Shown here in pieces: positions 33,001-45,000 of a stretch of DNA of 64,000 bases. A program made the position numbers. Positions within the stretch are counted from its first letter, which is position 1, and each line of letters starts with the position of its first letter. The stretch lies in contig CAWKAR010000045.1 of the NCBI GenBank assembly GCA_963847625.1, positions 111,809 to 175,808 of the forward strand, in the 5' to 3' direction. Origin of the DNA: a candidate division FCPU426 bacterium. GTDB taxonomy: Bacteria > Oederibacteriota > Muellerivitia > Muellerivitales > Muellerivitaceae.

Positions 33001-36000
33001 ACACCGGTCATGACCATCCCGAATAGGAGGACCGGGCCAATCAATCGGAATAAATGGACCCCGCTGCTCTTGAAGGCTGTGACTTCCATATCGGAGCTCA
33101 TGCGGCCGAAATTCAGGAGGGTGGCCATCATCAAGGACATGGGGACTGTCAGGGACAGGACAAAGGGGATTAAGCTTACGTAAAGAAGCAGGATGTCCGT
33201 CAGGGGAACCTTCTTGTTTACGAATAAGTCCAAAAGCAAAAAAACTTTATTAGTCATAAAAATAAAGGTCAAAATAAACACGCAAAGCGCAAAAGGGGGC
33301 AACGTTTCTTTGAGGACATAGAGGTAAACCGTTTTCAAGCTGGAACCTTTGGGTTATTTTTCGGCAGTATAACCCGCTTTTTCGAGTTTGTAACCCGTTG
33401 GTCAAGCCGATACGTCAAAAGGAAAACAGGAAATAACTTTTTTTGTTAGAAAAAATTGTTTTTAATTACTTTTCCACTTAGGGTTTAACGAGAAGAACAT
33501 CACGTTTTTCCATCGCCATCATGTTCTTTTTGCGGCCGTTTCCTCCCATTGGGCCCTTGTAAACGACAGTTGGGTCTTTGGAAACGTCCTTTTAGACTTT
33601 GAATTAATGGCTGGATTTTGAAGAAGATAAAATAGTTTTATGGGGAATTTCCTTGATTTTCTTTTACCCTCGCCACGACGGGATGGGGACAAAAAAATGA
33701 GATTTATCACCTTACCTCGGCTCCTTTTCCGGCGGGTTAGGAATAGATTCATTTTCCAACGATTTCTTCGGGTTAATCCAAAACCATCCGCTTCAATTTC
33801 ACACTATTTCTTTGGCTTTTTTACCTTGAGTTTAGGCTTCTTTTTAATGTTTGCCCGCCCCTCCCAGGGATGGGGACAGGACGCTGTCGACAAGGTAGTT
33901 CCTTCACCTACATCGGTTATGAACGGATCATCGGCCACCTCCATTTTAGCGCCCCTCACCACGGGTCAGGAAATCCAAATCTTGGAATCCATCGATGCCC
34001 AGTCCAATACCTCCCCGCCGAGTTCCGGAAAAACCCTTACTTCGGGCTCTCCCACTTTATCGGCGTCCACTTCAGGGCAGGCTCAAGGGAGTGTCGTCTC
34101 CCCAGCGGAAACAGCCGGGAACACCAGTACCCCTGCTGCGGTGAATTTAGGGTCTCCTCCAGCGCCGGTAGGCTTAAACGCACTCATTCTAAAGGAGGGA
34201 GTTTATCTTTCTTGGAATTCGGCTATTCCTGGTTCCTCCGTGGTCGGCTACAACGTCTACCGGTCGGATAAACCGGGAAACGGTTACCGTATGGTTAACA
34301 TGAAACCTCTGGCGGTTGCCAATTTTCTGGATGGACCCCCAAACAGCCTGGACCCGCCCCGAAACGGGGAGACTTATTTTTACGTGGTCGCCTCCATCGA
34401 CGGGCAGGGGAACGTGAGCCCCTATTCGGAGGAAATCTCGGCCCAGCCACAGGGTATGCAATACGCAGCCGCTACCGAGGAAGCCACGCCAACTCCGACT
34501 CCAGCGAAGGAGGAGGAAAAGATCCTGAACATCCCCGAAAACAAGCTTGTCAATCTGCAGTTGCCTGCGGACACCCAGCTTTCCATACAGGGCTACAAGA
34601 AAATCGAGGTGCAACTTGGCTTCCAGAAATACAACCGTCCCGCCCTGAACGGTGTCAGCGCGGAACAGGACACCCAGTTGGTCAACCAGGAATTAGTGGT
34701 GAACCTGGACGGAAAAGTTGGGAAAAACGTGGATGTTCACGTGGACTACAGCGACGTCAACCGGGCCGGGGGCGTGGACCAGAGCAAGCAGGAAATTTCA
34801 ATAGCCTACCATGGCGACGAAAACAGCCCAGTACAGGAAGTGGATTTCGGCGACCTTCAACTCCTGCTTCCCAACACCGAATTCGCGGGTTTCAGCAAAC
34901 AGCTATTCGGGCTCCAGGCTAAATTGAAATTCGACAATTTCAAGATGACCACTTTTTTCGCGCAGACAAAGGGAATTTCCGAGACGAAAGTTTTCACGGG
35001 GAACTCATCCCAGATCGACAAAACCTACAACGACATCGATTACATCCGGCAAAAGTATTATCTTTTGACGAAAAGGCCCTACCACAACGGTTCCACGACC
35101 ATCAGCACGGCCGACCTGCCCAAACCCAACTCGGAGCAAATTTGGGTCAATCCCAGCAACGGTTCTCCTCCCATCAATTCCCCCCCGAATTTCATTAACA
35201 CTTTTGAGCGCTGGCTCCCAGGACGGGATTATACCGTCGACTATACAACCGGGATCATCACTTTCATCCGGGGCCTTTCCAGCACGGCCCAGATCGCCGT
35301 GGGTTACGATGACCAAGCCGGGGTCACATACGGCCTAAATAATGCCGGCATGACTGCCGCGCTAGCTTATCCTGTTTCCTTGATGAGCCCCGAAGGAATC
35401 CTCGATCAAGATTCCAACGGAAATGTCGATCACCGGTATTTTCTCATAAAAAACAACGACAACACCACCAGCCCCTTTTATATGGTGGACTATTACGACT
35501 TGGGCCATGACAAAATCATACCGCCGAATCAAGACCCGAATTTCATTTTCGAGATCATTGACGCGGGGAACAGCAACGTCATACAGGAGATGTCCAATGG
35601 GCCGGTCAGCTATTTTATCAACCAGGACCTGAACCTCCTGACCGTTTACAACACCCACAACAGTTCTGTGTCCTACACCACCACTTCCAACGGGACGCCT
35701 GTCACGACGACGGGGAATTTCATGGAAAGAGCCTTCGTGGACTCGACTGATCCCTCATTGGGAACCAGCATCAACGGCATCTATAACGAGACCACTGTCC
35801 CCACCAGCTTGAGGAGAATCCATATCCGGTATAAAACCCAGTTGAATTTTTATTCCCTGAACCGCTTTAACATCATCAAGGCCAGCGAGGCGGTCTACCT
35901 GGACGGCAGGCGCTTGCGCCGGGACGTGGATTACACCATCGACTATACCTCCGGCTTCCTGGACTTTGTGGACAAGAGTATTCTCAGGACCGACAGCCAG

Positions 36001-42000: not shown

Positions 42001-45000
42001 CCAACGTCCAGCCGGCTAATAGCTATTTTTACCGCGTGACCGCCAGGGCGGATGGACCCGCTGGAGAATTAGCTGAAAGCCCGATTTATCCCACACCTGT
42101 GGCGGAAGCTGGTTTGTTTACTTGGCCCAGCATCCCCGTGGGATTAATCGCCCAAGGCGGGGTGGACCAGACGATCCTCTATTGGGGGTTTAATCCATCG
42201 GCTGACAACGTCGAAAGCTATTTAATTTATAACAACGGCACTCTAACACCTATTTTGACGGTGATGGCCACGATTTTGCCCACTAGTACATTTACTCCCT
42301 CCTCTCCTACCTCAACCCCCACTATTACCCCGACAACCAATTTGGTCACTCTCATCACCCCGACTCAGACCAATACTCCCAGTCCCACTTCCACCGGTTA
42401 TTACATTTCTCTTCCAGCTACCCCCGGGCTAGATTCGTCTTACGAAATCGTCGCCCAAAACGCACAAGGGTTAAGCACTCCGTCGTATTCTGCTTCGATT
42501 TTATGCCTTCCTGACATCACACCTATCGCAGGATTAACGCCACCTCCTGGATTTGCACCGACACCCAAAGTCACTCCGGCTTATCCGGCAGTGGTTTGGA
42601 TTTCCGGCCTTTCCTACCCTGGAGTCGTCAGCAGTTATGCGATCTATCGGTCCACCGATACGAGTTTTTCATCATACGTTGATATCGTGACAGAACCCGT
42701 TTCTTTTATTTCGGATAATAGTGCTGTCTCCGGTTATACAAATAATTATGTTATCTTGGCTAAAGACGCCAACGGTGTAAGCGTCAACCCGTTGCCTGGG
42801 ACAGCTCCTGAAGCTTCCGTTGATGTTTGGCCAAACGCCCCTTCAAGCATCGTTTGTCTGCCATCAACCGCTTCCATAAACTTATCCTGGGCGGTACCCT
42901 TAGGAAACCTTACTGTTACGGGATACGATATCCACCGGAGTACCTGCGCATCCTGTCCCCAGACATTACTTTCCTCCGGAATCACATCCCTTTCATACCC
43001 GGATAGCATCGCGACCCCAAGAATCCCGTATTTTTATGAAGTGGACACTGTGGCGGCTAATGGTCTCACAAGCGTTCAAGCCACCGCTTCGGGCCTAGCC
43101 GTGGCCCCGGTATCCCTTCAAAATACCCCTAACGCCGCTTCCAACATCTTGAATTGGTCACCGGTCTCCAAAGGCGCACCCAGCAACATCACAGGCTACG
43201 TGGTTTACCGGATGTCCTTACCCAACCCCGCAACCCTAACGCCCGTCCCTTTTACGGCCCTTTCACCGCTATTAGAAGGAATCAACAATACTGTTTACGC
43301 CGACATCAACGTGACCGAATCCGTGACCTATGCTTATGAGGTGGCGCCCGCCGCTTTGAATCCGGCCGGAGGGTACGTATTGGGTCCCTTTTCGAACGTG
43401 GTCACCCAATTAGTCTTTCCTCAGCCGGTGGCGGATTTGGAGGCGGCTTCGGGAAACGGGATTGTCCAATTGAGGTGGGATTACCAGGGAACGGCAAACA
43501 ACAAATTTACTTACACCATCCTGCGGAAGCTGGGGACGGCGCCGGACAGTGCCTATCAGGTCCTCAAGTCTGGTTTTTCCGGGTTGAACTTTACCGACTC
43601 CTCGGTCCAGAACAAGACCTTTTATGATTATGAAATTGTCAGCGCGGACGCAAATGGTCTTACGTCTACCGCCCAATACGTGACCGCACTGCCGGCCAAG
43701 CCACCGATCATTCTCAACACGAGTGTTACCCTTAGCCAGAGTCAAGGAGGCACGATCCAAGGCAATACCTTGACATGGTGGGCGGCCAATATGAACGGCA
43801 ACAGTGTTACCTTTGACGCCGCCAATATGTATCCCTTGGGTGGTTATTTATTGTCCCGGTCCACTGACGGGGGAGGGATTTATTCCTACACCCATATTAT
43901 TCCCGTGCCCACGTCAAGCGGAACAACACTCAATCCGATTAATTATTTCGACGCGGTGCAATTAATTCAGGGCGCGACGAACACCTATTTAATCCAGGCT
44001 TTCGACGCCCCGCCGGACCTGCCAGTTCCCATGGCGCAAGCCGTAACACAAGATTGGGTGCACCTTTCAACTTACAACCTGGTGACTGCTTATCTTTTGA
44101 ACGCAGGGGCAGCCTTAACCCGCAACGCAATCCGGCCTTTCGGCAATCTTCGGAAAAGAGAAAATGTTGTCGACATCCGTTTTGTGGTTACAACGCCCGG
44201 AAACGTGAATATCAAGGTTTATTCCTTGAATGGCACCTTCATTAAGGAACTGGTCAACCGCTGGTTCACGAGTGGTGTTTATGGGTTGCCGGACAGTCCC
44301 TATCCCCTGACGTGGGATGCGAAAAATATGAACGGAACCCTGGTTTCTTCCGGAGTTTATCTCATTACTGTTGAGATGAACGGCCACCAGGAAATTGACA
44401 AGGTTGCGGTTATCAAATAACGTCTTGTAGTTTTAACTCAAGTAAAACCACTGTGAATAATAAGCTTTTAAGAGTGCTTCATGATTTTCAACCCAACCGC
44501 CCGCATACAAAAATATTTAACCGACCTGGTATTTCCAAAAGTTTGTCAAAACTGCGGAGGTTCCTTCACTGATGGACTCTCGAACATTCTCTGCCGTTCC
44601 TGCTTCGATTCCATCCAGCCCTATGAGGACCCGGTTTGTTCGCACTGCGGGGTTTCCCTGCCTATCAGAGGATTCGAGGAAGCGATGAAAATCCGTTGCC
44701 GGGATTGCGGGGAAGGGGATTATTACTTGGATTCCGTCCGTTCCCTGGGTCCTTACGAAGGGCCAATTCGGATTGCTCACCACGCTTTTAAGTTCGAGGG
44801 AATGGAAAACTTTAAAACAACCATTGCCGATAAGATAGTTCAACACGTCCCGCCCTTCTTTTGGGAGAGCGTGGAAGCCTTGGTGCCAATACCCCTGAGC
44901 CCGGAGAAGGAACGGGAACGGGGATATAACCCTTCATTTTTATTGGCCGGGGAAATTTCCCGCCAAACGCGGATTCCGGTCAGACTGTTCTTAAAAAAAG

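What a model noticed while it worked through the whole genome (the two positions that open the first line are those of the whole stretch)
33847..44420. Hidden SprA-like translocon and cargo-coupled PorV barrels: a motor-less type IX-like secretion system outside Bacteroid [...]
g03042 (1944 aa, no Pfam or NCBIfam family over cut-off) folds as the giant beta-barrel of SprA, the type IX secretion translocon, and the genome also holds 12-13 PorV/PorQ-like barrels, at least eight of them directly downstream of (often overlapping) the gene of a large protein that ends in a FlgD_ig/Por_Secre_tail domain, while no GldL, GldM or GldN (PorLMN motor and ring) could be found. I read this as a stripped-down type IX-like export route in the phylum Oederibacteriota in which each big cargo brings its own PorV shuttle/anchor and which works without the known proton-driven motor; it would export the ~100 CTD-bearing cellulases, adhesins and propeller proteins of this genome. 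New wo [...]
Evidence so far: SprA_N Pfam hit only E 0.0014, 18.5 bits (cut 27) at C45:149549-149812; Pfam scan of the whole protein: nothing; PDB sequence search: nothing at E<=1; ESM Atlas nearest clusters 0.87-0.88 with SprA_N on 12-20% of members; one of 37 homologues carries a precomputed SprA_N row; AlphaFold of residues 800-1944 with 19-row alignment, pLDDT 76; Foldseek PDB: top four hits are SprA (8gl8_A E 1.4e-29, 8gl6_A, 6h3i_A, 6h3j_A; TMq 0.46-0.48), next best E 2e-5. g03043 (1580 aa) overlaps its stop and has a weak FlgD_ig tail. PorV/PorQ NCBIfam NF033709 on 12 genes; cargo->PorV pairs g00261/g00260, g00428/g00427, g01030/g01029, g01429/g01428, g01433/g01432, g01951/g01950, g03125/g03123, g03559/g03558, g02 [...]
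(Added by a program. Inside this text positions count along the whole contig: contig position 111,809 is position 1 of the stretch shown here. "Call 12" and the like, gene names such as g00115 and contig names such as C1 are that model's own, and its searches are not shown. The text may have been shortened before it was handed on; [...] marks where a part breaks off. The agent that wrote the report below was given it as the finding of a first reader that could run no searches.)

Follow-up and report, generated by a model that had tools for sequence, protein, structure and literature searches.

The report
Type 9 secretion without Gld motor
An uncultured bacterium far outside the group thought to own type 9 protein secretion has its giant export pore, many carrier barrels and about 120 tagged cargo proteins but no recognisable type 9 motor, so it probably exports proteins with a different, possibly TonB-like, power source.

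Summary
Mostly confirmed, with corrections. Window 33640-39681 encodes a true SprA/Sov. It passes the NCBIfam TIGR04189 cut-off (236 vs 200 bits), so it is not 'hidden'. Both modelled halves match SprA best and add up to 36 strands. The genome has 16 PorV-family barrels: 11 directly follow a CTD-cargo gene (background 67 of 2913), and 12 carry C-terminal OmpA, FN3, Ig or TPR extensions. A barrel and its neighbour's CTD dock in silico (0.93, best control 0.00). Only 11 of 124 CTD proteins have their own barrel. SprA occurs in 92 of 99 phylum genomes and PorV in 67 of 67. GldM (0 of 78), GldL (0 of 60) and GldK (0 of 46 over cut-off) were not found; GldM and GldL now have positive controls, GldN has none. 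'Motor-less' is unproven: a conserved TPR-barrel-ExbB-ExbD-TonB operon is present, and in two relatives its TPR paralogue sits in a cargo-PorV-TPR-ExbBDD-TonB operon. The scan reported the same theme before in Elusimicrobiota and Goldbacteria. New variant; secretion untested.

The parts
33640..39681 (+). sprA/sov: T9SS translocon barrel, 2013 aa from the probable start at 33640 (1944 aa from 33847); ends in Phe
   Evidence: TIGR04189 236.3 bits, cut-off 200; Foldseek top four hits SprA for both halves; start site from homologue P0002
33640..33876 (+). Probable signal peptide, with cleavage before Gln80; most homologues show a Gln at the like place
   Evidence: read by eye from the sequence and homologue N-termini; no predictor run
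33955..33999 (+). Short conserved, probably amphipathic helical motif inside the low-complexity N-terminal tail; candidate Skp-binding segment (inference)
   Evidence: pattern present in 23 of 42 close homologues
34153..34455 (+). FN3-like domain ahead of the barrel (would be periplasmic)
   Evidence: sequence pattern and conserved consensus; no family hit over cut-off
34573..34965 (+). Barrel strands 1-7 (residues 312-442); strands 3-5 are short, a candidate lateral opening
   Evidence: DSSP of low-confidence model (pLDDT 32-52 over most of this part), mapped
34975..36021 (+).
   Evidence: Foldseek to SprA
36049..36309 (+). Barrel strands 8-11 (residues 804-890)
36322..37875 (+).
   Evidence: VIA-align Z 14.2, rmsd 3.2, 152 aligned to 6r3m
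37882..39678 (+). Barrel strands 12-36 (residues 1415-2013)
   Evidence: model pLDDT mostly 80-95, strand count
39678..44420 (+). Conserved partner of sprA: 1580-aa signal-peptide protein of tandem FN3-like repeats ending in a type A-like CTD; no catalytic domain found
   Evidence: 4-base overlap with the sprA stop; strong orthologue in 13 of 13 family relatives, and a shorter form next to sprA in 10 genomes of other families; Atlas 0.94 FlgD_ig/fn3 cluster, below the recognition mark
44133..44417 (+). CTD (secretion tag) of the FN3 protein
   Evidence: genome-built CTD profile E 1.7e-18; aligned with 31 other CTDs
30999..33338 (-). lptF/lptG pair, divergent from sprA; conserved neighbour, not shown to be part of the system
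   Evidence: PF03739; cluster present in 55 of 81 sprA loci
44481..45224 (+). comF, conserved downstream neighbour
   Evidence: 45 of 81 loci
26279..26827 (+). skp/ompH in the lpx operon; candidate for the SkpA role (inference only)
   Evidence: PF03938

Best explanation
This is a type 9-like outer-membrane export system that lacks the Bacteroidota Gld energy chain. Shown: a 36-strand SprA, 16 PorV-family barrels, about 120 CTD-tagged proteins, and cargo-barrel gene coupling. Inferred from F. johnsoniae: CTD proteins cross the inner membrane by Sec, enter the SprA pore from the periplasm, bind the loops of a PorV-family barrel and leave sideways with it. Most cargo, in a few large families of similar CTDs, probably use one or a few plain stand-alone barrels (best candidate C19:29852-30808). 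About 11 cargo with divergent tags have a dedicated barrel just downstream, the way type B cargo use SprF/PorP. Those barrels carry periplasmic OmpA, FN3, Ig or TPR handles, so carrier and PorE-like wall anchor are fused. No C25 sortase was found in this family, so cargo is probably displayed on the carrier or released, not linked to LPS. The step that needs energy in Bacteroidota (pulling carrier plus cargo off SprA) must be powered differently. My leading guess (about 40% within this reading) is the conserved TPR-barrel-ExbB-ExbD-TonB module at C45:23402-31073, acting through its 1013-aa TPR protein.
For: SprA. Phylum-wide: SprA in 92 of 99 genomes and 58 of 60 good ones; one of the two misses is a contig break. 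PorV_fam in 67 of 67. Coupling 11 of 16 vs 67 of 2913, Fisher p 1.6e-15. Coupled CTDs are more divergent (nearest-paralogue identity 0.36 vs 0.72, p 6e-5). C57 barrel plus its neighbour's CTD: score 0.93, best of 3 controls 0.00; runs share at least 96% of contacts, partner pLDDT at least 92. The mark was reached by 116 of 157 solved and 2 of 215 mismatched pairs, roughly, as my own alignments were used; a like complex (8gl6) is solved, so the pass may reflect likeness. Gld chain: GldM 0 of 78 (control 2 of 2). GldL_N 0 of 60 over cut-off (control 2 of 2). GldK 0 of 46 over cut-off, and 24 of 46 lack any match to this easily detected fold, including near-closed SprA-positive genomes G053, G068, G074. 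A profile-free topology screen found no gldL-gldM-like pair. Ton candidate: the operon is conserved in G053, G032 and G094. The 1013-aa TPR, or its equivalent, is the best SprE/PorW match in 3 of 3 genomes. The TPR of the cargo-PorV-TPR-ExbB-ExbD-ExbD-TonB operons in G032 and G094 hits it at 223 and 215 bits, next best 50 and 51. 3 of 10 GH5 loci carry a CTD.
Against: No secretion, localisation or expression data. The GldN search has no positive control. The GldL and GldM controls score far over the cut-offs, so they test the pipeline, not sensitivity to remote homologues. G000 is 93.9% complete and seems to lack a MotA-sized stator that relatives have, so genes are missing. PorV_fam is not T9SS-specific: it rings in B. 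thetaiotaomicron, which has no SprA hit, and the BAM subunit BamG is a FadL-family barrel (PMC12611786, passages). None of the 16 barrels passes the PorV or PorQ equivalog. The SprE match of the TPR protein is under cut-off and that model rings in 12 of 14 controls. The 627-aa barrel has look-alikes in Rhodothermota, Spirochaetota and Bacteroidota, which points to a general envelope role. G000 itself lacks the cargo-PorV-Ton operon (two ExbB genes only). The N-terminal model is weak (pLDDT 54), so strands 1-7 are less certain.
Confidence: 0.62

Rival explanations
1. A complete ordinary T9SS whose GldK/L/M/N have diverged beyond profile detection, or are missing from this assembly.
For: SprA itself is only 12-16% identical to the solved SprA in structural alignments, and only 7 of 99 genomes pass its cut-off in the six-frame search. 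GldN has no positive control. G000 is 93.9% complete.
Against: SprA and PorV still give hits in 92 of 99 and 67 of 67 genomes, while GldM, GldL_N and GldN give none worth the name in 60-78 genomes. The GldK fold is found even in Bacillus and archaea, yet 24 of 46 genomes lack it. G000's three FGE proteins show no lipoprotein signal by eye and no gld-like neighbours. The topology screen was negative. Unfiltered phmmer with a real GldM and GldL gave best E 0.47 and 0.079.
Confidence: 0.12
2. A truly passive system. Cargo binds the carrier in the pore and the pair leaves by diffusion, ratcheted by peptidoglycan binding of the fused OmpA domains or by lower affinity outside the pore; no motor is involved.
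For: In F. johnsoniae substrate loading needs no energy (PMC10994853, passages). 4 of 16 barrels carry an OmpA domain. No motor gene lies near sprA in the conserved neighbourhood of 81 loci.
Against: The same paper finds that release is the energy-requiring step and that substrates are trapped without the motor. Only 2 of the 11 coupled barrels have OmpA. Relatives keep a private Ton motor with one cargo-PorV pair.
Confidence: 0.2
3. The SprA-like barrel has another job (LPS-related transport given its lptFG neighbours, or DNA uptake given comF), and the PorV-family barrels are FadL-like transporters or BamG-like BAM partners.
For: lptF/lptG are in 55 of 81 and comF in 45 of 81 sprA loci. The barrels hit UPF0164 and FadL weakly. 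PorV_fam rings in a genome without SprA.
Against: A separate LptD-like gene exists (C19:33980-36151) and lptFG is on the opposite strand. A CTD protein is translationally coupled to sprA and conserved beside it. 11 barrels follow CTD genes, and a barrel-CTD pair docks with high confidence. Some of the five uncoupled barrels may well be BamG-like.
Confidence: 0.06

Closest known systems
SprA/Sov translocon of Flavobacterium johnsoniae and Porphyromonas gingivalis (PDB 6H3I, 6H3J, 8GL6, 8GL8; TIGR04189)
   Same: Passes the family cut-off; 36 strands by my count, with two large folded inserts; C-terminal Phe; extended N-terminal tail.
   Different: About 1930 aa mature, against about 2400. It has an extra FN3-like domain before the barrel and is translationally coupled to a conserved FN3-CTD protein. 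It lies in a clade with Firestonebacteria, Goldiibacteriota and Elusimicrobiota, apart from the Bacteroidota-type rows.
Type A CTD / PorV route
   Same: Cargo tails resemble Por_Secre_tail and FlgD_ig; carriers score best on the PorV/PorQ family.
   Different: 16 family members here and 10-32 matches per genome in the phylum. None passes the PorV or PorQ equivalog. No C25 sortase (PorU-like) in G000 or 16 family relatives.
Type B CTD / SprF-PorP cognate shuttles with PorE anchor (PMC12618676, passages)
   Same: Shuttle gene directly downstream of its cargo; divergent tags; peptidoglycan anchoring.
   Different: The shuttles are PorV-family, not PorP/SprF, and the anchor or handle domain is fused to the barrel instead of being a separate PorE lipoprotein.
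GldLM/PorLM motor with GldKN/PorKN hub (PMC12635249, PMC10994853, passages)
   Same: Nothing found that corresponds.
   Different: Not detected in 46-78 genomes of the phylum, nor GldL over cut-off in 61 genomes of the phylum of G100.
Ton/Tol systems (ExbB-ExbD-TonB, TolQRA)
   Same: A conserved TPR-barrel-ExbB-ExbD-TonB operon in G000 and relatives.
   Different: Led by a 1013-aa TPR protein and an unnamed 627-aa barrel; a paralogous TPR links the motor to a cargo-PorV pair in G032 and G094. A role in secretion is untested.

Membership tests
SprA/Sov translocon family | Passes the curated family model TIGR04189 | tested here: met
   236.3 bits vs 200, E 4.9e-70
SprA/Sov translocon family | 36-stranded barrel with extracellular cap | tested here: met
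   7+4+25 strands with inserts after strands 7 and 11, counted on two half-models. 36 strands per PMC10994853; the insert positions in SprA are recalled. Strands 1-7 are from a low-confidence model.
SprA/Sov translocon family | Lateral opening that binds PorV or Plug | tested here: inconclusive
   Strands 3-5 are short, but the closed barrel could not be modelled (size limit) and SprA-PorV docking was not run
Type IX secretion system | PorV-family carrier barrel | tested here: met
   12 of 16 genes over the NF033709 cut-off; none over the PorV equivalog NF033710
Type IX secretion system | Cargo with C-terminal CTD that binds the carrier | tested here: met
   124 tails, reversed control 0; modelled barrel-CTD binding 0.93 vs best control 0.00, supportive only
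Type IX secretion system | GldL/GldM motor | tested here: not met
   0 of 78 and 0 of 60 over cut-off; pipeline controls positive in 2 of 2 records; remote homologues not excluded
Type IX secretion system | GldK hub lipoprotein | tested here: not met
   0 of 46 over cut-off, best 76 vs 350 bits; 24 of 46 with no match
Type IX secretion system | GldN hub protein | tested here: inconclusive
   0 of 60, but no positive control rang
Type IX secretion system | SprE/PorW and SkpA of the extended translocon | tested here: inconclusive
   No SprE over cut-off; best match is the 1013-aa TPR, but the model rings in 12 of 14 controls. An OmpH/Skp gene is in the window; binding not tested.
Type IX secretion system | PorU sortase / attachment complex | tested here: not met
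   Peptidase_C25 in 0 of 17 genomes of the own family and 8 of 60 in the phylum, so the search does ring
Type IX secretion system | Plug, PPI, PorD, PorG, PorT, PorZ | not tested
   No genome-wide search run for these
Type IX secretion system | Demonstrated CTD-dependent secretion | not testable with these tools
   Needs cells or proteomics
PorP/SprF type B shuttles | PF11751 over cut-off | tested here: inconclusive
   0 of 3 genomes, but no control rang; one barrel has a weak hit of 17.3 vs 22.3 bits

The most novel reading that the evidence does not exclude
The ancestral type 9 system is SprA plus PorV-family carriers plus CTD cargo, older than the FCB group and inherited vertically in the Elusimicrobiota-related phyla. 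There a Ton-type ExbB-ExbD-TonB motor, working through a giant TPR protein that grips periplasmic handles fused to the carriers, extracts carrier-cargo pairs from the pore. The rotary GldLM motor and track of Bacteroidota would be a later replacement, which reverses the published view that type 9 secretion arose from the gliding machinery.
Probability: 0.25. Interest if true: 0.88.

Novelty: new variant of a known kind. Interest (0 to 1): 0.62.

Why it matters
[quoted passage not shown] A phylum-wide, lineage-tracking SprA-carrier-CTD set without the Gld chain, outside FCB, contradicts the first two and challenges the third. Release from SprA is the energy-requiring step (PMC10994853), so these bacteria pose a clean question: what powers it here? 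The fused carrier-anchor barrels and the Ton operon give concrete candidates. It may also explain how these organisms place very large glycan-active proteins (14 CTD proteins over 2000 aa) on their surface. The novelty is tempered: public annotation already labels some of the barrels 'PorV/PorQ family' in Elusimicrobiota and Firestonebacteria, and this scan has noted the theme before.

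Tried and rejected
LptD replacement by SprA: rejected, a separate LptD-like gene exists. 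GldK among the three FGE-sulfatase genes: rejected on score, N-termini and neighbours. The topology screen for a gldL-gldM pair gave one pair out of 17 and 258 candidates, which read as a signal peptidase and a HemN-like protein (names by eye). A cargo-PorV-Ton operon in G000: not found, only two ExbB genes. Of 14 ExbB loci taken from four relatives, 2 had it. A positive control from Parabacteroides records in the plasmid collection failed: the SprA-bearing record had no GldM and the two FGE-bearing records viewed were not gld operons. Controls were then found in two IMG/VR records; these lack gldN. VIA-align on the half-barrel ranked MtrB (Z 18.6, rmsd 8.1, 503 aligned) above SprA (Z 16.8, rmsd 14.9, 964 aligned); I do not count it as support, because a half-barrel curls differently. 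The IQ-TREE run did not finish; FastTree was used, midpoint-rooted, with no one-clade test, so no direction of transfer is claimed. No RNA holder listed. A sequence look-up of earlier findings was blank. Loci L119-L121 were fetched and not analysed. Literature searches for SprA or T9SS outside FCB or without the motor listed no paper describing this. Subscription papers are not searchable, and I recall older surveys of partial T9SS gene sets in FCB sister lineages that I could not read. No supplements were read; Extended Data Table 2 of PMC12611786 was not visible and may bear on SprA distribution.

Full report
1. The ORFs. The window has an open frame at 33640-39681 (2013 aa; 1944 aa from 33847), followed with a 4-base overlap by 39678-44420 (1580 aa). 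The start at 33847 removes most of the hydrophobic leader. The same-genus homologue P0002 begins like the 33640 frame, so I take 33640 as the likely start. Pfam finds nothing over cut-off on either protein. NCBIfam does: TIGR04189 (Sov/SprA) scores 236.3 bits against a cut-off of 200. The protein is therefore not hidden from standard annotation.

2. Structure. I modelled residues 300-987 (20 rows, pLDDT 54) and 870-2013 (23 rows, pLDDT 78.9). Foldseek ranks the four SprA entries first for each: E 1.9e-17 to 1.5e-8, next 2.8e-3, and E 1.8e-32 to 1.1e-27, next 7.9e-5. VIA-align put MtrB slightly above SprA by Z, although SprA aligned over 964 residues. Mapping the long strands gives 7, an insert, 4, an insert, then 25: 36 in all. 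PMC10994853 (passages) gives 36 strands for SprA; that its inserts follow strands 7 and 11 is my recollection. The first seven strands come from the weak model.

3. Spread and history. TIGR04189 matches 92 of 99 genomes of the phylum, 58 of 60 good ones and 0 of 14 controls; 7 of 99 pass the cut-off in that six-frame search. One of the two good-genome misses (G090) is a contig break through the gene; G026 is unexplained. The genome scan kept the best 80 of 438 loci. Named relatives are Firestonebacteria, Goldiibacteriota, Desantisbacteria and Elusimicrobiota at 27-34% identity. The neighbourhood is conserved: lptF/lptG divergent upstream in 55 of 81 loci and comF downstream in 45 of 81, with many loci cut by contig ends. 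A FastTree of 55 rows (38 picked by hand from the 81 loci, 16 database proteins and one Parabacteroides SprA) groups rows by lineage and apart from the Bacteroidota-type rows. This fits old vertical descent, but the tree is only midpoint-rooted. NCBI lists Oederibacteriota directly under Bacteria, and PMC12313526 (passages) names the genus. I could not confirm that this genome belongs to it.

4. The partner gene. The 1580-aa protein is a string of FN3-like repeats with a CTD. It has strong orthologues in 13 of 13 family relatives. A shorter version lies directly behind sprA in ten genomes of other families, by coordinates. It is thus a conserved companion of sprA rather than a random cargo. 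Its role is unknown.

5. Cargo and carriers. A profile built from 42 FlgD_ig-bearing tails finds 124 of 12,367 ORF tails, with 0 in reversed controls; a few may not be true cargo. 59 are over 1000 aa and 14 over 2000 aa. 3 of 10 GH5 loci carry the tag. NF033709 gives 17 matches in 16 genes, 12 over cut-off. Eleven follow a CTD gene directly, against 67 of 2913 genes in general (p 1.6e-15). Twelve have C-terminal extensions of 107-485 aa: OmpA in four, fn3 over cut-off in three, TPR or Ig in the rest. Ten of the eleven coupled barrels are such fusions. The barrel-FN3 fusion has about 30 close homologues. Coupled CTDs are more divergent than the rest (0.36 vs 0.72 identity to the nearest paralogue), as expected for dedicated pairs. 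The C57 barrel and its neighbour's CTD scored 0.93, best of three controls 0.00; runs share at least 96% of contacts, partner pLDDT at least 92. The mark was reached by 116 of 157 solved and 2 of 215 mismatched pairs, roughly, as my own alignments were used. A similar complex is solved, so this shows likeness, not binding or specificity. The layout matches the type B cargo-shuttle-PorE operons of F. johnsoniae (PMC12618676, passages), with PorV-family barrels and the anchor fused. PorV_fam is in 67 of 67 genomes, but it also rings in B. thetaiotaomicron, and BamG is a FadL-family barrel (PMC12611786, passages), so some uncoupled barrels may not be carriers.

6. The motor. GldM: 0 of 78. GldL_N: 0 of 60 over cut-off, one hit at E 0.027. 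GldN: 0 of 60. GldK: 0 of 46 over cut-off, 22 with generic FGE-fold hits and 24 with none. GldL in the phylum of G100 (titled Ruminimicrobiellum): 0 of 61 over cut-off, four weak hits outside the membrane part. Two IMG/VR records gave the missing positive controls for GldM (E 7.5e-109) and GldL_N (E 6.3e-28) but not GldN. Unfiltered phmmer with those proteins and a topology screen found nothing in G000. Peptidase C25 is absent from 17 of 17 own-family genomes and present in 8 of 60 overall; the three loci I looked at read as C25 with FN3 or CTD. The Gld chain is thus very probably absent, though remote homologues are not excluded.

7. Is it motor-less? G000 has two ExbB genes. One serves a TonB-dependent receptor. 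The other lies in TPR (1013 aa), barrel (627 aa), ExbB, ExbD, TonB at C45:23402-31073. The barrel is in 16 of 16 family relatives and 28 of 60 genomes of the phylum, and the operon recurs in G053, G032 and G094. Prompted by earlier notes of this scan, I checked 14 ExbB loci in four relatives. Two (G032, G094) read CTD cargo, PorV with an Ig tail, TPR, ExbB, ExbD, ExbD, TonB. Their TPR matches the 1013-aa TPR at 223 and 215 bits, next best 50 and 51. That TPR, or its equivalent, is also the best SprE match in three genomes, but under cut-off and with a model that rings widely. The barrel has look-alikes in other phyla, so a general envelope role is equally open. In F. johnsoniae, release from SprA needs energy (PMC10994853), so a Ton-type substitute is my leading guess, with passive release the main alternative.

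8. What is known. PMC11285876 (passages) says T9SS genes are absent outside FCB. PMC12611786 calls SprA FCB-specific. PMC12635249 (passages) infers an origin in gliding. PMC7031533 (passages) describes Goldbacteria cellulases; the 12 of 15 passages shown did not mention this system. PMC12204202 and PMC8542988 (passages) did not describe it. Nine searches listed no description; the library lacks most subscription papers, and I read no supplements. The scan itself has reported motor-less SprA sets in Elusimicrobiota and Goldbacteria.

9. Verdict. The barrel is a member of the SprA family. The system works like a T9SS but fails the motor, hub and sortase tests, so I do not file it as a canonical T9SS. 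It is a new variant of a known kind; interest 0.62.

Noticed in passing
window 33955-33999: A short conserved helical motif in SprA's otherwise low-complexity N-terminal tail (23 of 42 homologues); F. johnsoniae SkpA wraps the SprA N terminus, and an skp gene lies 7 kb upstream.
   Followed up: partly
L103 (G000 C26:22735-28876): Four-gene run: PorV-Ig-OmpA fusion, TPR lipoprotein with a propeller-like C-half, 628-aa TPR protein, plain PorV barrel. Read together it resembles a split PorE-like anchor module.
   Followed up: partly
L104 (G000 C19:33980-40023): A PorV2-like barrel and an unknown 501-aa protein with a Pro/Asn-rich tail precede a third lptF/G gene and the LptD-like gene.
   Followed up: partly
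L105 (G000 C49:47292-49181): The PorV-FN3 gene behind the 2405-aa cargo has no clean signal peptide in frame and the family match starts late; possible frameshift or assembly error at its 5' end.
   Followed up: no
L144, L145 (IMG/VR records): Two viral contigs carry adjacent gldL (short, 145-aa frame) and gldM genes without gldN.
   Followed up: partly
G000 whole genome; window 7142-9226: Chemotaxis genes are present, but G000 shows no roughly 275-aa member of the MotA/ExbB family as many relatives do; probably an assembly gap.
   Followed up: no
L093, L100, L101: Records listed as numbered plasmids of one Parabacteroides distasonis strain hold chromosomal genes such as sprA, dxs and ruvA; they look like chromosome pieces.
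   Followed up: no
window 27792-29213: LpxC-FabZ fusion in the lipid A operon; I recall this fusion as typical of Bacteroidota and some other deep lineages.
   Followed up: no
window 18006-21134: Two insertion-sequence transposase genes, with similar copies elsewhere in the genome.
   Followed up: no
window 57000-59894: 964-aa protein joining CBM9-like, carboxypeptidase-regulatory and weak GH39 domains, next to a LacI regulator.
   Followed up: no
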